Shown here: positions 2,031 through 33,899 of the stretch, piece after piece
How the letters are laid out: the number at the start of each line of letters is the position of its first letter
Position numbering within the stretch: position 1 is the stretch's first letter
DNA from: Prorocentrum cordatum
Taxonomy: Eukaryota
DNA: 64,000 nucleotides
Assembly: GCA_963575745.1 (NCBI GenBank)
Contig: CAUYUJ010000011.1
Span: forward strand, 1 to 64,000
Direction: 5' to 3'
Translations under genes and position numbers: made by a program
Notes under the pieces: model-generated
Databases searched by the model: none
Told to the model about the DNA's origin: nothing
Seen by the model: only the letters and a program-made list of their open reading frames with translations

Positions 2031-5000
2031 GAGGGGCAGGCCCTGCACCTGCAGCAGGACGTGCGGGCCCAGGGCGCCGCGGGGGAGGGGGCTAAGGGAG
2101 CCCTCACAGCCGCCTTCGCCACCTTCCTAGAGTACGCAGAGGACGAGTGGGTCGACGTATACCAGCTGGAGGAGCAGAGGGCCAGGTACGTTGGTAGAGC
2201 GGACGGCTTCGCCACCAAGCTGGTCAAGCGCAGCGGGGTGCAGGACCCCAGGTCGCCGAGGCTCACGCCTGAGGCAGCGTGGATGGCCAGGGTGGCCCAC
2301 GCGCTGGGGGCCATGGCGCAGCTGAAAGCACCAAGGGCCAGGGTCGACGCGATCTGCTACTTGCCCCAGCTGGTGGCGGCGGCCCCGAAGAGAGTCAGGA
2401 AGCTGCAGCAGGACGAGGAGGCCCGCTCAGGGGAAGGAGGCGGCACTTCCTGCAGCATGGAGGCTGGGCGCTGGCTGAGGATGCTGCAGCATGGGGGCCT
2501 GGCGTGCTGGCACCCCCTGCTGCTCGAGAGGCTGGCCGACCGCGCGAAGCAGCACGCCAGTCACCTCGCCAAGCGCGATGTCGACGAGAGGGGCAGGCAG
2601 TTCGACGAGTGGGTTGGCAAGCAGCTCACAGGAGGAGCGGCAGGGCTCCACGCGGTCACGCGAGTGGCGGTGGGCTGGCAGGGCAGCGACTGCAGCATTG
2701 ATGCTGGGCCCGCCAGCCTGAGCAAGGAGCTGGACGACCTTGAGAAGGAGTGGAGCAAGATCTGGAGGGTGCAGTGCAGCCACGCCGAGTTGGAGTGGCC
2801 GACCGATCTAGGTGAGCGCCCCCCCCAGGCCCAGCTGCGAGGTGATGCGGGCAGTCCTGAGGTCCTTCAGGAAGGGCACGGCCACGGGCTTCGAGGCGAT
2901 CAAGCCGAGGCAGCTGCTGGAGCTCAGCGACGAGGGGATAGAGACCCTCATCGACATCGTGGTGGCGGTCGAGCAGGCCGCGGAGTGGCCGCAGATCCAG
3001 AGCAAGATCGTGTTCTTGGCCAAGAGGCTGGGCGGCGTGCGCCCTGTGGCCATCGCGCACGTCCTCGCGAGGGTGCAGACGAGGTTACGCAAGCCCCTGG
3101 CGGAGGAGTGGGAGCGCAGGAATGATCGACCGTTCTTCTGGGCGGCGCGCGGCAGAGGCTGCGAGAGGGCAGTCTGGCAGCAGGCCGTGGAGTGCGAGTG
3201 GGCGACAGCGAAGGGGCGCGAAGCTGGCGATGCATCCAGCTGGGTCGCGGCTCTCATCCTCCTGGACCTGCTCAAGGCGTACGAGCAAGTGCAGCATGGG
3301 CGCCTCATCCAGGCCGCCCAGCGGACGGGCTTCCCGCTCTGGCAGCTCAAGCTGCAGGTGAGTTTGTACAGAGCGCCCAGGTGGCTGGCGCGGGACGAAG
3401 CCGTCAGCAACGCCATCTGCACCGAGCAGGCGGTGCTGCCTGGAGACGGGCTGGCGACGCTCATGCTCAAGATGCTGCTGCTGGAGCCGCTGGACAAGCT
3501 TCAGGAGCTGGTGCCCACGCTGGCGATGTCGGTGGTCGTGGATGACATCATCTTGAAGAGGGTGGGCGGCTTCCAGCGGACAGTCAATGACCTCACGCTG
3601 GCGGCCAGGCATCTCAAGGTACTGCTCGGTGAGGCCGACCTAGAGATCGCGGTGAAGAAATCCAGGGCGCTAGCGAATGTACCAGCAGCGAGGCAGGAGC
3701 TCGAGAAGCGCCTGATGAAGCCGCTGGGGGTGCGCGCCACGGGGCAGGAGAGGAACTTGGGGGTCGACTTCAGTGGGGGCAAGAGGATAGGACGGGCTGT
3801 TCGTCGCGACAGGATGGCGCAGGCGAGAGGCAGGCTGCGCAGGATCAAAGTGCTGCAGGTGGTCAAGGCCAAGCGGAAGGCCACCAAGAGGATCGTGAAG
3901 ACGGGGCTGCACCCATGCATCGGGTACGGTACGGCCATCACGGGCTGCACGGAAGGGGAGCTGGACCGCGCCAGGACCCTCACGTTCGTCGCGGTCTCCA
4001 ACACCACGGCGAGCAAGTCCAGGTCGCTCGGGCTCATGCTCCAGGCTGGCCTCGACCCGATCTACGACGCGACCTGCAAGCCGGTGCTGATGTTGCTGCG
4101 TGCGGTCTGGGAGCAGTGGGTGCCGCTGCACATGGTGTGGCAGGGCCTCGAGGACAAGCGGCCCGTGTCCTGGGTGCACGTGCAGGGCCCGTGCGCGGCG
4201 GCGGTGCTCTCCCTCAGGAGGATCGGCTGGGACGTCGTCGCCGCCAACCGCTGGGTCATGGACGACGGCGTGGCCATAGCGCCCTTCGACTGCGCGCCGC
4301 GGGTCGTGGCCAAGCTGATGAGGAGAGCAGTGCAGCGCTGGCAGTGGAGGCAGGTCAGCAAAGCCCCAGGTTGCGCGCACTTGGCTGGTGGCGGCGAGCT
4401 GGAGCCCCTGGTCAGGCTCACCTCCTCTGGATGTGCCAGGAAAGCCGTCGAGCCACGCCGTGAGGAGGGAGCACCTCGCACCAGGGTTCGGTTGACGGCG
4501 CGAGAGCAGGCCTACCCGAGGTCCCTCATCATCGACGGGCAGTGGACTCAGGCGCGCAAGGAGGAGAAGGGGCTGGCGACCAGTGCTGGGTGCTTGAGGT
4601 GTGGCGCCAGAGGCACGCTGATGCACAGGCACTTCGACTGCCCGTGCTGGAGTGAGGTGCAGACGGTCCCAGAGGACTTGGCAGGTCTCCGAAGGCAGAG
4701 CGGGAGGCCTGAGGTGCAGCTGCTGCTGGAGAGGTGCCTGTGGCCGACACCACGGGGCATCCGCCGCCCGCCAGTGTGCAGCGACGTGTGCTGGAAGGGC
4801 GACCACGAAGGAGGCACCCTTCCTGAAGGCGAGCTGTTTCTCGACGGCTCGGCTTTCGAGGCGGACTACGAGGAGGTGGCGGCAGTTGGCTGGAGTGTGG
4901 TGGCGCTGCAGGCGCACAGCGACGGCTACAGGGCCTCCATCGCTGGCCAGATGGAGGGCCACTGCGTGGACATCAACGGCGGGGAGCTCACGGCGGTGAT

Positions 5001-20150: not shown

Positions 20151-21637
20151 CCTGACCAGACAAGAACGGGAAGCGCCATTTGTGCTCGTAGGGGTGTTTG
20201 TCGTTGTGGAAGCACGAGGACGAGGTGGAGAATGGCGTTCAAAGCCATGGACGTCATCGTTCATCCCAGACGGCTGGGGATGCCGAAAGCAGCCTTCGGA
20301 GGCAGAAAAGTTAGGAGAACATCCCCAGGCCGTGGCACGCAAATGAAGACGACGACGATGGACGACGGACGAGTGGCGACCACGACGGCGGCGGCGGCTG
20401 CAGCGGCGGCTGTGGAGGAGGAGGATAAAAAGGAGGATGAGGAGGGGGAGAGGATGAGGCAGACAAGGGAGGACGAAGGGGTAAAGGCGACGCCTTTGGG
20501 GTTCCTTGCGAACCGCCTTCGGGGTGTTCGGGGCGTGCGGGCGCAGCTTTGGGGTTCCGTGGGGGTTCGTGCAGAGCAGTAGTGTCGCTCTAGGCCACGC
20601 TGGGAGCTGTGTGGGGCAGTCTATGGGGTTCTAGGCGCTTTCTGTATCGCTGGCGCGTCCTTAGGGTGGTTTTGGGGGCTTTCCAGGCGCCTCTTGGAGG
20701 CCTCCTGGGGTGCTTTTGGGCCCATGTTCGTTCAGGTTCTTACCCAGCACCGAATTTTTGAGGATGGCTGGAGCAAAACGGCCTTTTGGTTTGCCGCGTT
20801 GGTCTGACGTGCTGGTCGAACCAGCATGCTCTCCGACCAGCATGCTCTCGGCGCGTGATGGACCTGGTGGGCCGTTTGGGGCTCCTCGGGCCCTCTTGTG
20901 GTCTTTAGGGCGCCTTTTGAAAGGCCTGTGGGTTATTTTTTTGGAGCTTCTCAGGAATATCTTTGGCCCCTGAGATTGTCCCGGCGCTCCTGGAGAGTAT
21001 ATGCGGGCATTCTCTTGGGCCATCTTGGCGTTCTCTGGGGCCGTCTTGAGGTTGTCGTGGGTGATATGGGAGTTTCCTCTGGCATTGTTGGTGCTCTGTG
21101 GGCGCCTCTCAGGCGCTCTTCTTCGCAAAGGTGTGGACGGTTGATTCGTGTACTTGTCGTCGCTGACGTCATCTTATTTGCTGACGCATTTCCTTTCGTA
21201 GTGGCTTCCGTTTTCTTCATTATTGTCTTCGTCCCCGTGCTCGTTTTTCTCGTCGTCGTTTTTTCGTTGTCGATTGCAGGATTGACGGGAATAAGTCATT
21301 CGCTATGCGCACAAATCGTGGCGTCGGAACGCTGTACGGCAGCAACAGCATGCTCGTAGGAACGCCTCCGCAGGGAATGCAAGTGCAGTGGCAGGTGGCT
21401 TTGCGATCAGTTCGCCAAGCGATTACATTCTGCGTATTCGTGAAGTAGAAATGGTGGTGCGTTTGCGGCTGCCCAGAAGGACGTCTGTGCCTCCGTGGAT
21501 GGGTGCGCGTGGGCGCTGGCACGATGTGAAATACGTAGTTCAGCACCTCTGAAATGAAAAGGCTCGTCCCACCACAGGGAAATCCAGAAAGGGTAGTCGT
21601 CGCGCTGGCTACACGTGTTGTATAAGCAAGTTGACGC

Positions 21638-21807
21638 CTGGTTCGGGGGTTCCGAAACGTGACGAGGGCCAAGGCAGTTTGGGCTTCTCGCGCAGCAGCA
21701 GGTGAGCCTCGAACCGTCGGGCGCAAGAGCCCGAGGGTTCAAGACGGGGCTGCCCGGAGGGAGTAGCCATGACGTCCCTGGTCCAGTTCGATTTGGGAAC
21801 CCCAGGC
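21638..21807 (-). other. Predicted intron (GC-AG, phase 0, 170 nt) with terminal inverted repeats
   Basis: GCACAG|GCCTGG...AACCAG|GCGTCA joins NRLLAQ to ASTCLYN..FWISLWWDEPFHF, supplying the missing OTU His strand. Stop at 21407. Confidence 0.75.
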
Positions 21808-24800
21808 CTGTGCCAGTAATCTGTTCCGGAACAAGAAGATGCCGATGTCGAGGGCTTCGCTGAGGCTGTTGACGTCTGTTTGTGTGCCCCAGTGCATATT
21901 TCCAGGCTGGGCCATGCAAGCTGCAATGCTTTGTCGAAGGTGCTGCAGTCGCGCCGTGCCGTCTGGTATGCTGATCAGGCTTTCGTCGCGATCGCGCCCT
22001 CCTCGTCGCGCAGCTGTCACGGCCACCCGGGCAACGGCACTCCCGTCGGATCTTTCCTCGAACGCGAGCACGCTCTCCACGTGCGCGAGGCAGTCCAGAG
22101 AGCACTGGCGAAGAACATCGAGTGGAACCCACAGGTCTTCATGCATCCCCGCGCGGTGCTGCATACAAGCGGACACTACGAAGTCAAGCACTTGCTCCGG
22201 TGTCCAGCGAAAGTATATGCGAGCGGACAGTTGTCGGAGTGCTCGCATGACGGCATCCTTGCCCTGGAGGAAAACTCGCGATGATAGAGTCTTCAATATG
22301 TGGCGCGCAGGTGGGCCACCAGCGACGACCATGCGAGCTAGCACTCCAGCGATGCTGTAGAAGAGGCAGTCGCCGCCGCCGCCGAACTCGACGCTGTGCA
22401 CGGACATCGTGGAACAACTGGAAGATCCAACTTTTGCAACGCGGGTGCAAAGTGCGTCTGACACGGCGTGGGTGGCGCCAAGTGCCCACTGCAGTCGGGC
22501 GCGCGAGTTGGACGCAGGTGATAGCAGGAAGTAGGGGCACCGCTCGTTGTCGACGCAGCACTCCGGCGAGCCGCATTCGCCGCACGGGCGGACGGGTGCA
22601 GACGACGGAACCATCGACGGCGAGGTTGCGCTCGGAGACGGCGTTCGTGTCGTCGGTGGTGCCGCGTCGAAGAGAGCGTCGTCAATCGGTGCTGGGTGCC
22701 TGGACTGCGCCTGATGGCCAGTAGGTGCATCGACTGCCATTCCTGGGACAGAATCCTGCGCTATGGGCGGCGGCGGCACCTGCGCCGCGGTACTCTCCGT
22801 TAGCCGCGGCTTCTTCAATGGGGGCAGCGCAGACAATGTCTTGGCTTGCTCCGCCGCGCTGCCGCCGGCGTCCCTCGTGTCTCCTGCCCGCGGCAGCAAC
22901 GTTGGCGGCGGCGTCTTCCCGCGCGTTCGACGAAGCACACTGCGGCCCTCCTCGGAGCGCGAGGGCGGCGGCAAAGCTGTCGCGCGCCGCTGGTGTCTTG
23001 CAGGGCGGTTAGCTCGGAATGAGGCTACCCGGGATGCCTGGCGCGACGCGCCATCGCTCGCGAGGACGTGGTCCATCAGGTCGTCGGGCAAGGCATCTCC
23101 AGTCATGTCCCGCAAAGTGCGGATGAGGTCATCGAGCGACGACGTCTCCATGTCGGCCAGCCTTGTAATCTCGTCTAGCAGGAACTTCGGTGGCTTTCGG
23201 GAAAGTTCTCGCCTGGTTGCCGGGCGTAGGATGAAAAGGCTCTCCACGGAGATTGCGCGCGAGAGCATCACGTAGCACGCCAGCCAATGCGTATCTGCGT
23301 CCATGGAAGGCGGCTTCTTCATGTCAGCCACCACGGCTACGCATGTGCCCCCCTGAGCTCCGTACACAATAATCGTATCTGCTGGCAATAAACGGTAAGT
23401 AGTGCGGCGGACAGAGAAGTGCTCCTCCTCCCACGCCGCGCGCAAATGCCCGCACGTCGGTCTCATTTGAAACAAGCCGCGCCGGTCCGTGCAGGTTGGG
23501 AGGTCCGCAGCCAAGTCGGCCGCAGGAAGTTCCCAGTCGCCGCCGTCAGCCTGCAGCCAGAGGGAAACGGGCATGAACTGTACGTGCACGACGTTCTCGT
23601 CCACTGGGCCCGACTGGAACGGCTCCCCGCTGGCGAAGACAATGCGGCGGAGCGTGCAGACGCAGCCCTTCATGGGGCCCAGCCGCACGCAGTCTTTGGA
23701 GCACATAGTCAGGCGCATTCCGATGTACAGTGGCAAAAGACTCGGCAAGTCCTGCGTATCTTTCGGGCTAACCCTCTGCAGGAGGTCTCTATGGACCTGT
23801 TCTGTCATTTTGTGAGCGTCGGCGGGGTCCACTGGCTCGTCGCGGGCTTGGACCACGTAGAGGCGGCGGCCCGTCCGCAGTGCTTGCTGTTTAGCGTGCT
23901 GCATTGATCGGTAGACGCGAATCTTGTGCCTGTGGACGATGTATGTCCAGGGGTGCGTGGAGAAGAGCGACGCGGGATCGCGCGGGCGGGTGTCCTCGGA
24001 AGATAGTATGCGACTGGTGTACAAGGCCCACATCGCGTCCGAGATGTTGCCAGCACGCATCTCCGCCAGCAGCTGGCTGAGTGGGCCAGGGGCGCGGGCG
24101 TTCACTTCCAGCGTCACCACCTTCCGGACGCGGCGCCACAGCTGCAGTCCTTGCACCGTCTCCACGTGCTTAGACCTCTTCTTGTCCCCGTCCTGTTCCT
24201 GGTCGTATTCGCCCTTCTCATTCAAAACGTCAACCTCGTCCAGGTCCGTGGCGAGGCTCCTGTTGTCGCCCGTCGGGTCGGCTGGTGGGAGCTGCATGAA
24301 GTCCCCGGAGAACGTCATGCCCAAGCCGCCCCAAGCCTGGGTGGAGCTCTTGGCCGCCTTCAATCGAGCCTCTGCCTGGAAGAGCTGGGCTGCTGCGACC
24401 ATGGACACTTCGTCAATGAAGCACGCGAGGGCGCCTTCCCAGCGGCTCCGGTGGCTCTCCAAGACAGTGCGCGTGAGGCGACCTTTCTTACTGGACACGG
24501 TCACGCTGCCAAACGGTAGTTTGCACAGTGCGTGCAGTGTGTCCCCTTTCAGAAGCCTTGCCGCCGAGTTCGATGGCGCGCATTTCTGCTCTGTGTCTGG
24601 GCCGTTGAAGTAGCAGATGACTGCTTCGACGACTCTCAGAACCGCCGTCTTCCCAGTGCCTCCGGGGCCCATGAGTGCGAGCTGAAACCCGTCTGCCAAA
24701 GACGGTCGCCCTGTGACAGTCGGCCCAGAGGGCTCGTCGAACCCCCACGCGCGGTTCATGACGTCCTGTAGCCAAGCAGCGTTCCAAAGCAGCGCGCGCG

Positions 24801-26903
24801 CGCCTGTTTGACGTTGATCTCGGGCATGTCGACCACGTTCAGTACGCCCGCCCGCAAGAGGTGGACGCATGCGTCGAGCACTGCAGTTCGCGTACGCGGA
24901 GGTACAGGCGGGAACGCCGAGCTGCGGCCGTCTGCCATGGTTTTCTGGAGCCGACACTGCAGGCCATCGGGCGTCTCCTGAGTGGACTTCTGCGGCCTCG
25001 TAGTCGTCTCGGCCTTCCAGGCGTCAATCATCTTGAAGAAGTCCGCTTGCCGGTCCGCAGCCGCCAGAGATGCGGCTGGGCGCAGTCGCACGGCATCCTC
25101 GAGTACTGGTGCACTAGAGGCCACGTCCGCCGCTCGCAGCCGGGCGGAATTCTCCCGCATGAACTCAACGATGTATTTCGCTGCTGCTGCGGTGCTTCTC
25201 TGCCATGCTGCCGGAGCAATCACGTCATCCATCTCCACGCCCTCAGGGAAGATGCCGCAGAGGAGGCTTGCCGGGTCGGGTGCTCGGTGTCTTGGGGCTG
25301 GCGCGGGGTGATCCTTGTCTTCGTCGTACGGGGGAATGTCGGGCGGGTGGATATCGTCGTCGCTGTCGTCGTCGGACTCCAGGAGAGTGTCCGGGTCGTT
25401 CGCGGCTTTGGCAGCCTCATCACGGGCGGCGTTCCACGGTGGGAGAAATGGCATCTCTACGTTCGACGGCACGGCTTCGCTGATGGTTTGTCTCCTGGAG
25501 GAAGCGAAGTCGTAGTTGCGAATGCTGTCCATTATTCTGTGCGCCCACCATTCTGGAGTCAGAGGGGGCGTCTCCGCAGTGCACTTTCGAGCCACCTCTC
25601 GGGTCGACACTTCCCATGCGCGGAAGTCGTGCACGACGGCTGTCTGCAATGCGTTCTCTCCATGCGGCCGCGGTGTAGACGTGATGCGCGACGCGAAATC
25701 TGACAGGGACCTGAAGGGCCTGAACAGAACCATCACGTTCAACGCATAGAGGAACCACTCGTCCAGGAGGTCGTCACTGGCAGGCCGACCAGGCAATTTG
25801 CCGTAGAGGATGGGCACCTTCCACGGCTTTGTCACACGCAATGAGATGTAGTACGCGTGCTTGTAAAGTACTTCCCCGTTGGGCTCTGCGTCCGTCGGAG
25901 CTCCTCGGAGCGGCGCTCCGTCGTAAGTAGCGCTGGTCACTGGCGCGGCCGTGTACTGCCGGCGGCCGCCGCCCCTGAGCCACTGGAGAGATTCTGGCGG
26001 GGGCTTCTTGCCAACGGGCATCTTGGCGTCGTAGCCGCGAAGAAGAAGTAGAGGGGAAAGTGTTCCAGCTCTTGCGGCCTGCGCACGTAGTCCAACTCGC
26101 CGATGTGGAGATTTGCTGGGGTCCACTTCGTAGCATACGGTCGCGGTTGGCTGTGGTCTGTCTGGAGAGGTTCACCGCGAGCTGTCTGGGACATCGTGGC
26201 GCGAATGAAAGCGAGGAGCTCCCCGAAAAAGACCGGGGCAAACGCATGGCTGCTGTGCGCGATGGGCTCTCCTAAAAGGTAACTGATCATCTCGGGGAAC
26301 CCTTTGTGCATCCGCTTGTTGGTCGCGGCCACCAGCGTGTGCAACAATTTGCGTGCCTTCTCCTGGTCATCGACCATGTCCTTCGCAGCTGCCAGCTGTG
26401 CCGCACGTTCTTTCCTCTCGAGCGACGCGGCCAACGTCATTTTCAGGCCGTCTGCGCGCGGCTGCGACTTCGCCGAGTACGCCGAGGCGTAATACTCGTG
26501 GTCCCCCATTGCTTCGGCCATCGCTGCTTTCACCTGGGCAACGCGGCTTTCATTCGGGAGGTCGGCGTCGTTCGCGGGGAGCTCGCAGAACGGCAGCAGG
26601 ACCGCCAAGTCGTGGTTGCACTGCGGGCCCAGCATGATGGCGGGGTTCAGCCGGAAGTGGAACGGATGCGTTGTTTCCAGCGCTGGAAGGCCCACGTGTG
26701 GCGGGTAACGCAGAATCGGCAGCTCGCCAGTGCCATCCCATCGAGCGTGTAATTCCAAGCCATGCTGACGTTTGGCAATCTCTTTCCCTGTCTTTGCGTC
26801 GGTCTGTCTAGCCCAATGCCAATAGTGCATGCGGCAGAACCCCTTCTTGCCGAGTCGCCCTTTGTGACAAACTGCTGGCCGACAGACGTGATTGCCAATT
26901 TTC

Positions 26904-27150
26904 CTGTCGATCGTCTGGTCAGAGGGTGCGCGTTCATGGAGGCCGCAGCTAGTTCAGACAAGGTCCACGAAAACACTCGTGTTTTGGTTGGAAGGGGGTA
27001 TTCTGTTGTCGCCGCACCCCCAGAATTGCCAAGAAACGTTTCGGGGGATGGGCAGTGGTCGAAACACGGAAAACGTCGAGGGGGGGAATCCATTGAGCTG
27101 CTGTTGCTACTGCCTCCAAGAAACGGAACCCTACGAGCAGGCGGCAGGTC
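26904..27150 (-). other. Predicted intron (GA-AG, phase 2, 247 nt)
   Basis: ACCAG|GACC...GACAG|GAAA gives EILSRTRKIGNHVCRPAVCHKG, restoring the Rep His/Cys motif in frame. Confidence 0.7.
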
Positions 27151-27277
27151 CTGGTCCGCGACAAGATTTCCTGCACGGCCTTGATAGACCACTCCCCGCT
27201 GTCGACGCTGGGGTCGGAGGAGAAGGACGTCGGGAAGAACGCGAACTCGGCGACGTTGCCGGCGCACGCAGCGGGTC

Positions 27278-27617
27278 CTTTCGGATCGGCGGAAAGGGAG
27301 GCCAGCTTACGTCCAGTGAAAAGGGTGTAGTGCAGTACACGCATACATGTATGTATACATATTTGTGTAATGGTATGTACGAGTACATATATGTAAATGT
27401 ATATGCATATGGCTGTTGGTGGTAAATGCACTGCAACCAGAAAGCATTGCGTTGCATTGCAAGCAAGGGATGTCACGCACAGATCCAGGTAGACATTTGC
27501 GCCCCGAAATGCTTTGCGCGGTGCAATTCGCTTGCGCCCTCGGGGACTGTTGCACTAAACGTATTGCACCACCCCGTGTAATCTTTTAGCTGGGTACCCC
27601 TTTCCATCGACTTCTGC
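27278..27617 (-). other. Predicted intron (GC-AG, phase 1, 340 nt) with subterminal inverted repeats
   Basis: GAAG|GCAG...AAAG|GACCC joins RGLE to GPAACAGNVAEF in frame. Interior is AT-rich. IR at 27286-27307 / 27588-27610. Confidence 0.72.
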
Positions 27618-30600
27618 CTTCGAGGCCCCGCCCATGCCACTGGGCGGCGTTGCTGGCGGCCGTGCGAACGCCCCCGATCTTCTCGCGCTGCGATTTCGTC
27701 AACGGCAGCAACGGCAACTGTTGAAGGGCGGCATGTCCGAGCGGGTCCTTCGCGTAGTGAGCGAACGCCTCCGTGCTGCGGAACGTTATAGAAGCGATGT
27801 AATGCCAGGCGCGTCGGAACGTGTTCTGCAGGTGGTCGCCTTGGAAGAGGTCGTCAGGGTGAGAGAATCCAACGAGCTGAATGAGCATGTGGATGTGCAG
27901 CGCTTTGCGCATCTGTCCTTCCGCAACGCCGAGGTGCGCCCGAACGTGCCCGACGATGCCGGGCAAACTCTTTGCGGCGATCCCGTCGCAGTTAAGCTCG
28001 TCGGGCGCACCAGTGCAGTTGAACAATGCGCGCATGACGAGCCGCACGGTCCAGTGGAAGACGCGCGTGGCAATGAGCGGGTCCTTCGCCACAGCTCGGT
28101 GAAGGCGTCGCGGGTCCTCCTGGTTGAAGTCGGTCATCCACTGGGTTGCCTTGTCGTCGGTCATGTCCAGGGAGAACTTGCGGGACGCGGTCGCGTCGTC
28201 CTGGGCCAACAGCACAGTGAGGGGGCCCCGAATGTCGCGCGGGTTCAGGGCGAAGAAGAGCGATGCGCATCCAGACCATATGCGCAGAGTCCGGAATCGC
28301 CAGATGAATCCTTCTCGCTCCTCGGCGGATCCGCGGACACGTCGGAGTGCGAGGGGCATCCGGTGAGCGGCGTTGCGGACGACGGGATCGAGCCCTTGCT
28401 GTCGAAGCAGATCTCGGAGATTGGCCGCGCCCCCAGCGGCCGCGGCGGAAGAGACGAGGCCTTCAGCAGTGAGCTGCGCGAGCGCAGTGGTTTGGCCCGG
28501 TGTCATGCCAGCGATGCCGTCGCTGGCCGTGGACTTCACGTGGGCCTCGACGCTGGCCATCTGGTCGCGCCGCAGGAAAGTGTTGAACAGCGTGGCCACG
28601 AACTCGACGTCGCGGCGCCAGCAAACAGTCTCGGCTCGCGTGAGCAACGTCTTCGCCCACGTTGCTGCGGGCAGGCGAGCGGGGCGCTGGGGGCACGTTT
28701 CCTGACAGTCTCCTCGCGGGAAGAGTCGGAGGAAGCATGCCGCCCAGAAGTTCTCGGCCCGCAAGGACAGGAACTGGTCTCCGTGGGCGATCTGCACCGC
28801 AGGCGCGTCGACCTTCTCTTGCGCCGCCCACTCGTCCAACTCCCTCCGGACAGAGTCGCGGGACATCCGTTGCACTGCCTCGACTGCTTTGGCGAGGGCT
28901 TCATTGCGCCGCATCTTCATCTGCGCGCGAGCGGATGAGTCGTGGCCCTCCGACAACTTATGGATCTCATCATGGAGGCGCGATGCAACGTCGAAGTTCT
29001 CCACGACCCGCGTCCGCAAGCGGAGTGCTGGCACGTCGTCCATGCCCCCGTTCACAACGGCGGCGTTACCATCGTCAGCCGTTTCAGTCGGGTCTGTCTC
29101 GCGGGCGCCACTGTCGGTGCAGTCAGCTGGGCCTCCCGACGCCACCGAAGCTTTTGCTGCAGAAGCCGCAGTTGCCGCGGAGAGTACTTCCCGCGGAACG
29201 CCGGAGGAGCTTCCAATGCTGCTGGCGTAGGCACTGAGTAGGGCCTCCAGGGCGGCGTGCAAGGTGCCCGAGCGCCAGATCTCATGGTGCCTGGTGGCGA
29301 ACATGAACATCCAATTGTTGAGGGACAGCCACCGGAACGCCGCGCGTAAGCGGAGAACGGGGGCCTGGAGGTCCGGGTGTCGTTGTAGATCGTCAAACGT
29401 CCCACCCGCGAACTGGATCACCATGGTCTGTGCAAGGGCCGCAGGCAGCATGCCTATGGCAGTCAGTGCAGTGTCGGGGCTCTGCGGGTAAGCCACCACG
29501 TTCTTCTGGTGGTACGTGGGCGCCTCCGAAGTGGCCGTAGGAGCGTCGGGCGCCTTGCTGAGGAACGCGCGTTTGATGCTGACATACACTTTGGCGAGGT
29601 TGATGACCTTGCACTCAGCGTACGTGAGGTCCACGAATTCACGGGGGTCGGCGCCTCTCCACATCCCGTTCGCCAGAGCAGCTAGAGGCACTCGAACTCG
29701 CGGGCGGCGATCGTCACGGGGGCCGATCAGTTCCCGCAGCGCGGACGCGCAATGCTTGCACATGTTCGCCGCGGCGCCGGAGGCGGCGCCCTTGCCGTCG
29801 GCGCTGGACGTCGAAATGCCCGGGCGGCACAGCAGCCAACGCCTTTCGGGGTGGCCGGGCGCAGCAGTGGAGTCCGCCACGAGGTCGGCGCGTACAGCCG
29901 CCGCCAAGCGCTGAACCCTCTCATGCCAGCTTCGAGCAGCATCGGCTGTAGTGAAGCCCAAAGAACTTTCCTCTCCTTTAAGCAGAGCGGCGACGTTGAG
30001 CTCTGCTTCTCGCAGCCACTCACTCTCGCAGAAGATCAGTTCCATGTACCGGTCGACGCTGAAGACGTTGTCCAGCCGCGCGTGCCAAGCGTCCTTGTGC
30101 GCAGTCCAGACGTCGGTGGGCCACTGCGGCCAGTCGGGGCACGCGTCGTCTGAGGGGTCCGGCAGGTACGTCGTTTGGAGTTTGCATCGGCGCTTGTCCC
30201 AGGCGCAGACTGCGCAAGGTGCCATGGTAAAGTTGGCATCGGTGAGCTCCGCTTTGAACGCAGCCAGGCGTGCCCTCACAATTTGAGGACTGATGGGCGT
30301 AGGCCACGCCGTGAGGGATCGTTGAGGTATCACATTCCGGTAGGAGTCCAGTACGTCACACGCGGGGTCGAGCACGTCGCGGTGCATCTCGGCGAGGTGG
30401 GCGGGCAGGTCCTCGGCCCGCACGTGGACGAGACACAAGCGGCAGCATTCGGGGTGTAGGTAATCGGGCGTGGCCGAGCACGCTGGCAACGCATCCTGCG
30501 AGCGGTTCTTCTGCAGAAGCAGTCGAAGAGCTGGTTTTGTGCCGGTCCACGATTGGGCGGGCGGCAGCGAGTCCATGTACGATTCACTTTCGACTTGCAC

Positions 30601-31763
30601 CAGCTTTGCAAGCATGGCGGGCGACTGTCCCGCGAAGCACGTCTGGCAACAGTGCATGTAAGTCCGGGCGTGCCTTGCGGGCCTCTTGCCGCAGATAATG
30701 CAGAGGGTCCCTGAAGCGGTCCAACACGCGTCGCACAAGGCCTGCGAATCGAGGAAGTGCTTGGAACAGAGGGTGCACAAACGGACAGAACGAGGGCAAT
30801 TTGTGGTGGCGCACGGTCCGTGAGAAACAACAAATTTCTCACCGGTGATGGGATCTGCTTCCCGGTAACAGTAGCCGCACACAAGTTCAACAAAATGGCG
30901 GCGTCACAGGCCGGACTGTCTCTCGTCGTCGCTGGAATGAGCGCGGCACCACAGAGCGAGAGTAGTGCACAGGGAACAGCTCGGCAGCGGCGTGCTTGGT
31001 GGAGGCAGTTGCCGACAAATATCACACGCCCGAATGGCTGCACATGCCTTGCACGACCGTGCGGCGTAGAAGTCTCTGTGCGCGGGTGTGGTAGTGCAAT
31101 ATCTGCACAGGCGGCCATCAGCAATCCAGCAATTCCCGCAGGTCTCATTGGGGCTGGACGCCGCGCAAGGTGAGCACAATGGGAAAGTGGAGCCGCATGT
31201 GGACGTAGCGCATGGCGCTCTGGTCATCGACGCACTCGGCAGCGTTGCGCGGCACATGGTGCAAGAGGTCTGAGTCGAGGCGCACGCATGGCACCAACCT
31301 GAAGCGCGCTCGTCGGCAGTCGTGTGCGTGGGGCAGCCCATGGCACATGAAAAGGCGACGGCGTGGGTTTTTTTTGGGGGGCGTCACACATGCGGAGCAT
31401 CTCAGAGGGTGGTCCTCCGAATTGTACCACGTGCACCCGTCCACATGGCAGGCCCTTTGTCGCTCACATGGCTTGCACATGATCTTGCGCACGAGCTCCC
31501 GTGACTCTCCGCAAAAATTGCATGTAGACTTTCGAGCCTGCTGCTTCTGGGCGTATTTTTGGGGGAACAACTTGCGGTAGCACACTTTGCAGTACCCGTC
31601 GTACCCCGTCTGTGCGAATGGTGTGTTCTTTTTGGCGCCGTGGGCTCCTCGGCAGAGCATGCGGCCCTGGGACATGGCGGCCGAAGCGCAGAGTGTCAGA
31701 GTACAGCCCTGGCGACGCGCGGCGCCTTCACGAGAGGCGCCTCCGCAATAGAGGGGCGACACG

Positions 31764-31792
31764 TGACCAATGGTTTGAGCCGAATTTGTACG
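31764..31792 (-). other. Probable tandem relict dinoflagellate spliced leaders upstream of RepHel
   Basis: Minus strand CGTACAAATTCGGCTCAAA (15/20 to CGTAGCCATTTTGGCTCAAG) followed directly by CCATTGGTCA, ~90 nt before the ATG. Confidence 0.55.
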
Positions 31793-33899
31793 TGATGGGG
31801 CATGTTGCGAAAGTCGTGCGTTCGTTCGGGGGGGGGGTCGGCATGTTTCTTCCGCTTGACGCCGCCACTGCGTTGGCCTTGGAAGGGGTACGAAACTGGG
31901 AAATGCGAGAGGTATCAAGATGAGTCCAAGAGACTCAAGATGCTTCCGACACGGCCGAAAAGAGGGCGAACAACACAGGGCCTTAGTCCAGGATTACAAA
32001 GTCAGTCCTTCCGCTCTCCCGCACTCCCTCGCACTCCCGTGCTCTTGCGCAGCCCTGGAGTTGTGAGGATGCCGTAGGCGAAACTTGCCAGATCACCTCT
32101 CCCGCGGAATCTCTGGGCCCAGAGATGCGAGAATGTCTCAGAAGGAACAGGTGGACGATATCAGTGCAGGGCAGCTCTGGTCCCAGAGGTGCGAGGTGGT
32201 TGCAAGCGACACTCACGATCGATCTGTCCATGAGCCTCATTGTGGATCTCACTGTCGATCTCCCTATCGAGGTCACCCCCTCCCCCCCTTCTCGTCCTCC
32301 TCCTTCCCTCGATGGGGTCGAAGGTCGGTCCTCGAGTTTCGAGGATGAGGGGTGGGGGCTCGGCCGCGACTGGCCGCGGGCCGGCGGCTCGCAGGAAGGG
32401 GCAGTCCGAGGGGGCGGCCTTGTAAGAAGGCAGGGGGGCTTTCAGAAGGGGTTTCTTCGAGGTCGGCACGCGCCTCTCAGGAGGCGGAGGAGGACGAGGA
32501 GGAGGAGGACGAGGACGGGGAGGAGGAGGGAGAGGATAAGGAGGAGGAGGGGAGGAGGAGGAGGAGGGGGAGGAGAATGAGGGGGAGGGCGGAAGAGGAT
32601 GAAGAGGAGGGAGGAGGAGGAGGAGGAAGAGGAGGACGAAGGGCGGTGTCCCTTCACGGGGGGGTGAAGAAACGTGTCTCTGCGGCCCTCCAGGGGCCCA
32701 CGCCTTTGTGACAGAACGCTCTTGGAAGTGCAGATCTGCGCACGATTCACACAATCGGCTCGCAGAGGCCTCCACGCGAAGGAACGCGTGTTGAACGCGC
32801 TCACGCCGCGGAAAATGAATCAATACGTATGACCGGGCGTCATCAAGTCGAATCGATCATCATGGACGTTGTGCAAATTCGGATCACCAAAGAGGGCTGA
32901 CTGCCACGCGCGCACACGGAAGCGCGGGAACCGTTGCCAGGACCCCCGCGAGCGGGGAAGGGTCGTTAGCCAGGCAGCACAGCCACAAGCCATCTCAAAA
33001 CGGGGGCTGCTGGACAACGCCAACCATGTACGGCAGGCTCCCGTCGCGACGACGTCGGCGCTGGCTTCTGACACCGCGTGGATCGGTCGACCTTCAACGA
33101 TCGGGACTTCCCGATGAGCCGGATCGTTCAACATATGACGATCCCGGACCATGGGCGGCGTTCCACCTTGAACGCCCGCGGCGCGGAGGAGGAGGGAGGG
33201 AGGGAGGGAGGGCCGAGACTTCCCCAGCAATGCAGGGCAATGGCGAACAGAAAACATTTCGATATAGGTTTTAGATAGGTTCAAAAGTAGGTTCGGGAGA
33301 TAGGTTCGCAAGCATAGTAGGTTCCAGGAAGAAGGTGCAACGCGCGGGGAAAACGTGTCATCGGGCAGATAGCCTCCCGTTACTGGGTTTGCCAAAGCGC
33401 GTCGGCGCAAATGCCGCGGGCAGCTAAGTTGGCGAAGCGAATTCGCCAAACTAGCCCTGGCGAGTGCACCCGGGGACGTTCCCTGGCCGCGGTAACCTCG
33501 CCAAGAAGGTTTGCAATGAAAAACGGCGTCAGGGCTGCATTTCAGGCAGGGGCCGCGACACTTTTCGCGCGATGCACTCTCGGGCACTAAACATAAAAAA
33601 TTAACGAGAGCGGCTGCGGAGAAGACCTCCGAAAACACGACCCTCCAGAAAAGCAGTCACGACGATGGGCGACCCAAAAATCAATTGGGGCAGCCCCAGC
33701 AACTGGCACGGCGAACAACGCAACTCAAGGAATCCCGGACAAGCCGGGCCGCCACCAACAATCACCCCGTACCAATACCGTGCCCCGGCGGGGTTCGGAC
33801 ACGCCATGGCTCCTCCTCATTATCGCGGCCGCCCCGCCCAAGGTCATTCTGCCCTCCCCAAAGCCACTCGTTATCAATCACATCATGCTTCCCATCATC

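What the first reader, a model, noticed from the sequence alone, without database searches (positions are those of the whole stretch)
21638..27617. All three predicted RepHel introns look like Introners: non-canonical donors, junction direct repeats, terminal inverted repeats
Seen: donors are GC, GA and GC. Direct repeats span the junctions (AAGG, CAGGA, CAGGC). Inverted repeats: TCGATGGAAAGGGGTACCCAGCT vs TCGGCGGAAAGGGAGGCCAGCT (340-nt intron), GGGGTTCCCAAATCG vs GGGGTTCCGAAACG (170-nt intron), and only CCTGCCG/CGACAGG (247-nt intron, weak). Each removal restores the frame, and two restore conserved motifs. Known: dinoflagellates use GT/GC/GA donors and harbour TIR-type Introner elements. Inference: MITEs have colonised another transposon's gene and are spliced out.
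Basis: partly seen in the sequence, partly recalled or inferred. Interest (0 to 1): 0.7.

Follow-up and report, generated by a model that had tools for sequence, protein, structure and literature searches.

The report
Hairpin introns in a decayed Helitron gene
Three short hairpin-forming inserts that interrupt a rolling-circle transposon's own gene look like typical dinoflagellate introns, possibly born from small foldback elements, but this copy of the gene is dead and nothing yet shows that the inserts are mobile or repeated elsewhere.

Summary
The three segments are real: I340 at 27278-27617, I247 at 26904-27150 and I170 at 21638-21807, all on the minus strand. Removing each one restores exact collinearity with insert-free relatives. 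The boundaries read GC-AG, GA-AG and GC-AG, and a G follows each acceptor.

The junction repeats (AAGG, CAGGA, CAGGC) are the generic "identical repeated intron boundary" of dinoflagellate introns (PMC5032977). They are not specific evidence of a target-site duplication.

Terminal inverted repeats exist in all three segments. I340's is marginal on its own.

Related DNA contigs that are 80-95% alike carry all three segments. More distant relatives lack them. No other copy was found anywhere I could search. No genome and no RNA run were available.

The window copy is a pseudogene. It has an in-frame TGA and two frameshifts, and relatives are intact at all three sites.

Verdict: these are lineage-specific dinoflagellate-type hairpin introns inherited by a dead Helitron copy. 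An introner-like origin is plausible but unproven. Earlier notes of this scan describe similar hairpin introns elsewhere in this genome. Interest is modest.

The parts
21407..31940 (-). Decayed Helitron RepHel gene: Cys-rich N-terminus, DUF6570, Helitron_like_N Rep, PIF1 helicase, OTU-like tail. About 10.5 kb including 757 nt of intron-like inserts. The upper end is approximate.
   Evidence: Pfam: DUF6570 6.9e-13, Helitron_like_N 5.9e-12, PIF1 2.9e-12. tblastn of homologues. The OTU hit is sub-threshold and found only in relatives P0173 and P0176 (E 0.019 and 0.052).
27278..27617 (-). I340: 340-nt intron-like insert, GC...AG|G, boundary repeat AAGG, phase 1. The interior is TA/CA-rich low complexity.
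   Evidence: collinearity. (fold z -3.41). joint 27459->27547 shows a related contig with an 87-nt internal difference.
27588..27610 (-). I340 5' inverted-repeat arm. It starts 7 nt inside the donor.
   Evidence: 17 of 23 columns match the other arm. The longest exact run is 8 nt.
27286..27307 (+). I340 3' inverted-repeat arm. It ends 8 nt before the acceptor.
27151..27277 (-). Exon 2 (127 nt, about 42 codons) between I340 and I247.
   Evidence: Matches P0025 residues 693-734 (E 2e-7) and L002 2406-2531 (E 1.7e-10).
26904..27150 (-). I247: 247-nt intron-like insert, GA...AG|G, boundary repeat CAGGA.
   Evidence: (fold z -1.51). All six 1-nt gaps of X1 record 5 lie inside it (tables 4 and 8).
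27106..27143 (-). I247 5' arm of a 39-column imperfect terminal inverted repeat.
   Evidence: score 17, reached by 72 of 9889 window segments, 0 of 4518 coding segments and 0 of 5000 shuffles.
26912..26949 (+). I247 3' arm of the terminal inverted repeat.
   Evidence: self-match 8-45 against 239-202 at 71%.
21638..21807 (-). I170: 170-nt intron-like insert, GC...AG|G, boundary repeat CAGGC. Almost the whole segment is an imperfect foldback.
   Evidence: (fold z -4.06). self-match 5-100 against 162-65 at 66%.
21789..21803 (-). I170 5' inverted-repeat arm.
   Evidence: 8-nt exact core.
21646..21659 (+). I170 3' inverted-repeat arm.
21407..21637 (-). Last exon, the C-terminal part of the OTU-like tail. 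The stop codon is at 21407-21409.
   Evidence: P0173 residues 216-275 align to 21634-21410.
30904..30906 (-). In-frame TGA stop inside the Rep-upstream region. Related contigs read TGC (Cys).
   Evidence: ORF break. table 3: T>G at 30904 in 5 of 5 covering contigs from X1, X2 and X3..
26035..26036 (-). Frameshift: the window lacks one base that relatives have.
   Evidence: Frame change -1 to -3 in the homologue HSPs. 'Put in behind 26035: T' in X1, X2 and X4 (table 4).
24792..24793 (-). Frameshift: the window has two extra bases in a (GC)n run.
   Evidence: Frame change -3 to -2. 'Left out 2' at 24792 in X1-X4 (table 4).

Best explanation
The three segments are short dinoflagellate-type spliceosomal introns (GC-AG, GA-AG, GC-AG) with the usual AGG-containing boundary repeat. 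They belong to the RepHel gene of one Helitron family.

The lineage leading to this family gained them, because more distant RepHel relatives are uninterrupted at these sites. All the related contigs seen across them carry them, because Helitrons copy themselves as DNA, introns included.

Each segment has an imperfect terminal inverted repeat set 4-8 nt inside the splice sites, and each folds so that its two ends meet. The most likely origin is insertion of small foldback or MITE-like DNA at (N)AGG(H) sites, as described for introner-like elements of other dinoflagellates. In the RNA the hairpin would also bring the weak GC or GA donor close to the acceptor.

The copy in this window is dead: it has one nonsense change and two frameshifts. 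Here the introns are therefore inherited passengers. Splicing would matter only in intact family members.

Shown: the anatomy, the collinearity, presence in close copies, absence in distant ones, and the decay of this copy. Inferred: actual splicing, a transposon origin, and any role of the hairpin.
For: Collinearity after removal.
- 35 of 205 proteins span the I340/I247 block, and 22 of those 35 show the exact 44-residue offset.
- P0173 shows the same 4-residue spacing across I170 and the same C-terminus.
- locus L002 has exons 1, 2 and 3 contiguous in one frame at 1221-2399, 2406-2531 and 2532-3398. L003 and L004 are also contiguous there.

Splice signals. In all three segments a G[C/A]...AG|G register exists exactly where collinearity needs it. 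By my arithmetic, a random insert with a 4-5 nt duplication offers such a register about 6% of the time, so about 3e-4 for three.

Boundary repeats. (N)AGG(N) repeats match the dinoflagellate intron rule of PMC5032977 (passages read). They also match TSD classes 12-14 (NAGGH, NNAGG, AGGH) of the Roy et al. preprint 10.1101/2020.10.14.339549 (passages read).

Non-coding behaviour in relatives. All six 1-nt gaps of X1 record 5 fall in the 247 nt of I247 and none in the 242 nt of coding flank (my arithmetic gives 0.017). The only indels of X1 record 4 across 23906-26110 are -2 and +1, which repair the window's frameshifts, and one +3.

Terminal inverted repeats and hairpins. Combining the three window-segment fractions by Fisher's method gives about 0.0015 (my arithmetic). 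Two of the three segments have an exact repeat of at least 8 nt within 30 nt of both ends, against 1.2-2.1% of random window segments.

Background. The P. cordatum genome paper reports such 'introner elements' in 2.4% of introns (PMC10666404, supplementary note read in passages).
Against: - No RNA evidence: one search listed no RNA holder.
- No copy of any segment was found outside the RepHel context. Depth in the DNA runs is not raised over the intron bins: X1 gives 17.7, 18 and 26.4 against 18-37 in neighbouring bins. The tool warns that contig depth is a poor measure.
- I340's inverted repeat is marginal alone (649 of 9809).
- Inverted repeats of 14-24 nt are common in this GC-rich gene: 13 pairs in 12 kb.
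- The direct repeats do not abut the inverted repeats as classical target-site duplications do.
- The three segments share no similarity with one another.
- In-frame GT donors exist 6 nt downstream of the I340 donor and 12 nt upstream of the I247 donor (read), so the non-canonical donors rest on collinearity only.
- Among the 38 best-supported coding differences from relatives, 14 are synonymous and 24 are not. This gives no sign of constraint on this copy.
- The insert-free relatives could in principle be transcripts, because the collections do not say.
Confidence: 0.55

Rival explanations
1. These are ordinary dinoflagellate introns with no transposon origin. The terminal inverted repeats are chance, or were selected because a hairpin helps to splice short introns that have weak donors.
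For: The boundary repeats are generic (PMC5032977). I340's repeat is marginal. Comparable inverted repeats occur 13 times in 12 kb of the same gene. An exact 8-nt terminal repeat occurs in 1.2-2.1% of random window segments, close to the 2.4% 'introner element' rate published for this species (PMC10666404). No other copies were found. The segments are positionally conserved in the close copies seen.
Against: All three introns of one gene have end-anchored inverted repeats (combined about 0.0015 by my arithmetic). I247 reached 0 of 4518 coding segments and 0 of 5000 shuffles. I170 is a foldback over nearly its whole length. The introns are absent from distant relatives, so they are gains, and a gain needs a source of DNA.
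Confidence: 0.25
2. These are plain insertions of small foldback elements into a Helitron lineage that was already non-functional, and they are never spliced. The splice-like ends come from the elements' target preference.
For: The window copy is a pseudogene. X4 (kind unknown) and X1 contigs run straight through I170 (records 23 and 1). No exact intron-skipping joint is among the 15 joints shown of 27. Two relatives carry other inserts without any AG acceptor register: L004 395-603, and L005 about 767-1216, the latter with its own inverted repeat and a 7-nt direct repeat.
Against: Relatives are intact at all three lesions of the window copy. One 2.2-kb related contig shows only frame-repairing or 3-nt indels. 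That suggests intact family members exist whose ORF is only open if the segments are removed. All three segments have a usable G[C/A]...AG|G register.
Confidence: 0.17
3. The segments are assembly artefacts, such as chimeric joins or mis-assembled repeats.
For: The window holds 100 N, and the two frameshifts could be consensus errors.
Against: Independent runs hold contigs that cover each segment together with its coding flanks: X1 record 5, X1 record 1 and X4 record 23, plus X2 and X4 contigs at 27080.
Confidence: 0.02

Closest known systems
Dinoflagellate introns with an identical repeated intron boundary (IRIB), Mendez et al. 2015, PMC5032977; GT/GC/GA donors (Roy et al. preprint 10.1101/2020.10.14.339549)
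   Same: 2-9 nt around the 3' splice site repeat the sequence around the 5' site and contain (A)GG. The donors are G followed by C or A, the acceptor is AG followed by G, and the repeat remains once after removal.
   Different: Those papers had cDNA. Here removal is inferred from protein collinearity only. The host gene is a transposon's own gene.
Introner elements defined by structure in Amoebophrya (Farhat et al. 2021, PMC7789003) and applied to Prorocentrum cordatum (Dougan et al. 2023, PMC10666404)
   Same: An inverted repeat of 8-20 nt within 30 nt of both intron ends, a 3-5 nt direct repeat over the boundaries, and a hairpin fold. I340 and I170 meet this. Spacers of a few nt between the direct and inverted repeats are also described for Amoebophrya A120.
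   Different: I247 fails the exact 8-nt rule (its longest exact run is 5) although its imperfect repeat is the longest. Amoebophrya elements often lack GH-AG, whereas these have it. Family membership by sequence was not shown here.
Introner-like elements of Symbiodinium and Polarella glacialis (Roy et al. preprint 10.1101/2020.10.14.339549; the Curr Biol 2023 version is known to me only from reference lists)
   Same: TSD classes NAGGH, NNAGG and AGGH, in which both splice sites come from the duplication. GA donors are commoner in young introns. There are inverted repeats near the ends.
   Different: Those are families of hundreds to thousands of similar introns in unrelated genes, with inverted repeats that end at the 3' splice site. 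Here each segment is a singleton in all data searched, and its repeat ends 6-8 nt short of the acceptor.
Nested transposon insertions (a MITE inside another element)
   Same: Small non-coding foldback DNA lies inside a larger element's coding region and is then copied along with it.
   Different: Ordinary nested insertions break the host ORF. These carry splice signals in the exact register that would heal it.

Membership tests
Helitron RepHel gene | A Rep (HUH) domain of Helitron type together with a PIF1-family helicase in one gene | tested here: met
   Helitron_like_N 5.9e-12 and PIF1 2.9e-12, both above the Pfam cut-offs, on the same strand and collinear with long homologues.
Dinoflagellate spliceosomal intron | A G[T/C/A] donor and an AG acceptor followed by G | tested here: met
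   GC, GA and GC donors and AG|G in all three, each in the single register of its boundary repeat that gives AG.
Dinoflagellate spliceosomal intron | An identical repeated intron boundary containing (A)GG | tested here: met
   AAGG, CAGGA and CAGGC. The rule is taken from PMC5032977 (passages read).
Dinoflagellate spliceosomal intron | The segment is absent from the mature mRNA | not testable with these tools
   No RNA holder was listed and no genome is held. The only evidence is indirect: collinearity with insert-free relatives.
Introner element, structural definition (Farhat 2021; Dougan 2023) | An inverted repeat of 8-20 nt within 30 nt of each intron end | tested here: inconclusive
   The longest exact repeat is 8 nt in I340, 8 nt in I170 and 5 nt in I247. 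I247 has a 39-column imperfect repeat instead. Two of the three meet the rule as written.
Introner element, structural definition (Farhat 2021; Dougan 2023) | A direct repeat of 3-5 nt overlapping the exon/intron boundaries | tested here: met
   4, 5 and 5 nt. This does not discriminate, because dinoflagellate introns in general have it.
Introner / introner-like element, family definition (Roy; Gozashti) | Many sequence-similar introns at unrelated sites in the same genome | tested here: inconclusive
   None was found in the 64-kb window, the scan index, six metagenome loci or viral contigs. The genome itself could not be searched.
Introner / introner-like element, family definition (Roy; Gozashti) | A recent gain: an empty site in close paralogues or orthologues | tested here: not met
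   Contigs 80-95% alike in X1 and X4 carry the segments. Empty sites were seen only in relatives at 35-69% protein identity.
TIR DNA transposon / MITE | A target-site duplication directly flanking the terminal inverted repeats | tested here: not met
   4-8 nt lie between the boundary repeat and the inverted repeat on both sides in all three. For I340 a degenerate 7-8 nt repeat next to the arms is possible but imperfect.

The most novel reading that the evidence does not exclude
Introner-type foldback elements invade the genes of other active transposons as well as host genes. A Helitron family tolerated three independent invasions because the host spliceosome removes them. The Helitron now spreads these introns as passengers each time it copies itself. 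Because a RepHel gene starts without introns, it would act as a clean trap that records the dominant route of intron gain in this genome. Splicing of weak GC and GA donors could also gate transposase production.
Probability: 0.3. Interest if true: 0.5.

Novelty: new member of a known kind. Interest (0 to 1): 0.3.

Why it matters
Hairpin or introner-like introns and GC/GA donors are already described for dinoflagellates, including the species that earlier notes name for this genome. The kind of thing is therefore known.

The modest new point is the host gene. A transposase gene with no ancestral introns has acquired three, and all three have end-anchored inverted repeats. That is what one expects if foldback insertion is the main way new introns arise here. 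Such transposon genes could then serve as natural reporters of intron gain.

The finding also carries a caution. The junction direct repeats should not be read as target-site duplications in dinoflagellates. The published structural criterion (an exact 8-nt inverted repeat near both ends) is met by 1-2% of random segments of this window, close to the 2.4% reported for the species' introns.

Tried and rejected
- Whole-genome search of the window's assembly: no genome is held.
- RNA evidence: no RNA holder listed. One run (X4) is of unknown kind.
- Read laying: none of the 15 joints shown, of 27, skips a segment exactly. The other 12 were not shown, and 225 loose ends were not shown, so a spliced or empty-site form cannot be excluded.
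- Depth over the intron bins is not raised, but contig depth is unreliable.
- Scan index by sequence for I340 and I170: nothing. I247 was not asked.
- blastn of the three segments against the window at word size 9, and searches for the arms with mismatches: only the segments themselves, plus two 2-mismatch 14-mers of no weight.
- blastn against six metagenome loci and among the inserts: no hit better than E 0.013.
- Viral contigs: one distant RepHel fragment (L007). The two-arm I170 pattern gave 0 matches. That collection is unlikely to hold this DNA, so this says little.
- Protein searches for close, possibly transcript-derived relatives: best identity 69%, so none is close enough to show splicing of this family.
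- Rfam on 21000-32200: four matches, all far below gathering scores, including miRNA-like hits on the TA/CA-rich core of I340. Rejected.
- Pfam on the window's own C-terminal pieces: no family. OTU appears only sub-threshold in relatives.
- The generic inverted-repeat tool (seed 9) did not report the three terminal repeats, because their exact cores are 8 nt.
- A first, harsher alignment scoring under-reported I340's repeat, so I rescored.
- Supplementary tables S1 and S2 of PMC10666404 (introner counts) were not among the two files held as text.

Full report
**What is there.**
The region holds one long minus-strand gene of a Helitron. Pfam finds DUF6570 and Helitron_like_N in the ORF 27586-30903 and PIF1 in the ORF 21739-25023. 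Homologues from public metagenomes align along the whole stretch from about 31940 down to 21410. The tail has an OTU-like Cys motif. Pfam gives no hit on the window's own pieces and only sub-threshold OTU hits on two relatives (E 0.019 and 0.052). No genome is held for the window. Earlier notes of this scan name the organism as the dinoflagellate Prorocentrum cordatum. I did not verify the name. I only note that the window's G+C of about 60% fits the 59.7% given for that genome (PMC10666404, passages read).

**The three segments.**
Read on the minus strand:
- I340 runs 27617->27278 and reads AAG|GCAGAAG...CCGAAAG|GACC.
- I247 runs 27150->26904 and reads CAG|GACCTG...CGACAG|GAAAA.
- I170 runs 21807->21638 and reads CAG|GCCTGG...AACCAG|GCGTC.

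The direct repeats AAGG, CAGGA and CAGGC are present. Within each, only one cutting register ends in AG, and that register fixes the donors as GC, GA and GC. In-frame GT donors lie 6 nt downstream of the I340 donor and 12 nt upstream of the I247 donor. They would add 2 residues or remove 4.

**Does removal heal the gene?**
Yes.
- In tblastn of 25 homologues, the HSPs stop at 27619-27622. Exon 2 (27150-27275) matches P0025 residues 693-734. The HSPs resume at 26905.
- Of 205 fetched proteins, 35 have HSPs on both sides of the I340/I247 block. The other 13 range from 40 to 56.
- In the metagenome locus L002 the three exons are contiguous in one frame (1221-2399, 2406-2531, 2532-3398). L003 and L004 are also uninterrupted there.
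- For I170, P0173 aligns residues 17-211 to 22395-21817 and residues 216-275 to 21634-21410. Four residues lie between in both proteins, and both end in NRLAN.

The collections do not say whether these relatives are DNA or transcripts. L004 and L005 carry other unspliced inserts, which speaks for DNA.

**Are the repeats more than chance?**
The junction repeats are not special. Mendez et al. 2015 (PMC5032977, passages read) showed that dinoflagellate introns in general repeat 2-9 nt across their two boundaries, always with GG and usually with AGG. The repeats here are this rule, so they cannot be counted as target-site duplications. They are, however, also the pattern of introner-like classes 12-14 (NAGGH, NNAGG, AGGH) in Polarella (preprint 10.1101/2020.10.14.339549, passages read).

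The inverted repeats are real but uneven. I aligned the first 50 nt with the reverse complement of the last 50 nt and compared the score with random same-length segments:

| Segment | Score | Window segments reaching it | RepHel-coding segments | Shuffled ends |
|---|---|---|---|---|
| I340 | 10 | 649 of 9809 | 225 of 4422 | 298 of 5000 |
| I247 | 17 | 72 of 9889 | 0 of 4518 | 0 of 5000 |
| I170 | 12 | 440 of 9907 | 41 of 4536 | 17 of 5000 |

- Combined by Fisher's method, the three window fractions give about 0.0015 (my arithmetic).
- All three minimum-energy folds pair the 5' end with the 3' end (z -4.06, -3.41 and -1.51).
- I170 is a foldback over nearly its whole length.
- The arms begin 4-8 nt inside the splice sites, so they do not abut the direct repeats.
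- Inverted repeats of 14-24 nt are common in this gene, with 13 pairs in 12 kb.

**Known definitions.**
Farhat et al. 2021 (PMC7789003) and Dougan et al. 2023 (PMC10666404) call an intron an 'introner element' if it has an 8-20 nt inverted repeat and a 3-5 nt direct repeat within 30 nt of its ends. Dougan et al. find this in 2.4% of P. cordatum introns (supplementary note, passages read). I340 and I170 meet the rule with exact 8-nt cores. I247 does not, because its longest exact run is 5. The same exact-8 criterion is met by 1.2-2.1% of random window segments and by 0.4-1.2% of RepHel-coding segments. The criterion is therefore weak, but two of three in one gene remains unlikely by chance (about 7e-4, my arithmetic).

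**Other copies.**
This is the defining feature of introners as families, and I could not show it.
- The three segments have no other copy in the window.
- There are no look-alikes in the scan's index for I340 and I170.
- There is no match in six metagenome loci and no similarity among the three segments themselves.
- The two-arm pattern found nothing in viral contigs.

Four public runs were laid on 20800-32200 at 80% likeness. All are contigs, and none is on record as RNA. Related contigs cover each segment together with its coding flanks:
- X1 record 5 covers 26753-27241.
- X1 record 1 covers 21000-22326.
- X4 record 23 covers 21569-22002.
- X2 and X4 contigs cover position 27080.
- An X1 contig lies inside I340 with an 87-nt internal difference.

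None of the 15 joints shown, of 27, skips a segment exactly. The segments are therefore positionally conserved in the close copies I could see and absent only from relatives at 35-69% protein identity. It is what one expects if the family's founder gained the introns and then multiplied.

**Non-coding behaviour.**
All six 1-nt gaps of X1 record 5 fall inside I247 and none in the 242 nt of coding flank (chance about 0.017 by my arithmetic). In contrast, X1 record 4 has 2.2 kb of coding sequence with 155 differences. Its only indels are -2 at 24792, +1 at 26035 and +3 at 25401.

**This copy is dead.**
Those -2 and +1 indels sit exactly where the homologue alignments change frame. The window therefore has two frameshifts that relatives in three to four runs lack. 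The in-frame TGA at 30904-30906 reads TGC in all 5 covering contigs. Of the 38 best-supported coding differences, 14 are synonymous and 24 are not, so there is no sign of constraint on this lineage. A third frameshift near 31345-31388 is suggested by one homologue only (P0018).

**Mechanism.**
The most likely account is as follows. The founder of this Helitron family acquired three small foldback inserts at (N)AGG(H) sites. Each gave a G[C/A]...AG|G pair in the register that leaves one copy of the repeat, so the host spliceosome could remove it and RepHel stayed functional. By my arithmetic, a random insert offers such a register about 6% of the time, or about 3e-4 for three. The Helitron then copied the introns with itself, and the window holds one decayed descendant. 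Splicing, the transposon origin and any help from the hairpin are inferred, not shown.

**Rivals.**
- Ordinary introns with chance or structurally selected repeats: 0.25.
- Unspliced insertions in an already dead lineage: 0.17.
- Assembly artefact: 0.02, contradicted.

**In passing.**
Two distant relatives carry other inserts in the same gene.
- L005 has about 450 nt, roughly 8 codons upstream of the I247 site. It has its own 27-column inverted repeat and a 7-nt direct repeat, but no AG register.
- L004 has 209 nt at another site.

This fits a picture of RepHel genes being invaded repeatedly. Gozashti et al. [quoted passage not shown] My searches listed no paper whose title or abstract start describes introners inside a Helitron's own gene. 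That is a search of listings, not proof of absence.

**Verdict.**
The introner interpretation is plausible but unproven, and its direct-repeat argument does not hold. The kind of element is known in these algae, and the scan has noted similar hairpin introns elsewhere in this genome (e1-7625971, e1-7695829). Interest is modest.

Noticed in passing
window 30904-30906, 26035, 24792-24793: The RepHel copy is a pseudogene. It has an in-frame TGA (TGC in 5 of 5 related contigs), a 1-nt deletion and a 2-nt insertion in a (GC)n run. Relatives in three to four runs are intact at each site.
   Followed up: yes
L005 about 767-1216: A distant RepHel relative carries an insert of about 450 nt, roughly 8 codons upstream of the I247 site. 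The insert has its own 27-column inverted repeat and a 7-nt direct repeat (CTCATGT). It starts GTGAGG and ends CCTCAT, and no cutting register gives an AG acceptor.
   Followed up: partly
L004 395-603: Another relative has a 209-nt frame-breaking insert at a different site in the Rep-upstream region. It has the direct repeat ATGTG, starts GTGAGC and ends GCTCAT. The ends resemble those of the L005 insert.
   Followed up: partly
window 20800-21180 and 32058-32148: Both flanks of the RepHel region are short tandem GGGCC/TCTTGG-type repeats. They draw very many partly fitting contigs and loose ends in all four runs; X1 depth is 199 against about 20-50 over the gene. This looks like an abundant satellite-like repeat bordering the element.
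   Followed up: no
window 31345-31388: A possible third frameshift. P0018 aligns in frame -1 down to 31388 and in frame -2 from 31344, with 14 residues against 43 nt between. One X4 contig has a single gap somewhere in 31039-31565, and an X3 contig has none in 30837-31454.
   Followed up: no
window 27337-27418 (inside I340): A TA/CA-rich palindromic low-complexity core gives weak miRNA-precursor-like Rfam hits, all far below the gathering scores. It is most likely a composition effect.
   Followed up: yes
window 21407-22400: The C-terminal domain has a GGGGDCLFYSIAG motif and a conserved HF. The OTU hit is only sub-threshold in relatives. The domain is conserved to its last residues (NRLAN) in P0173.
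   Followed up: partly
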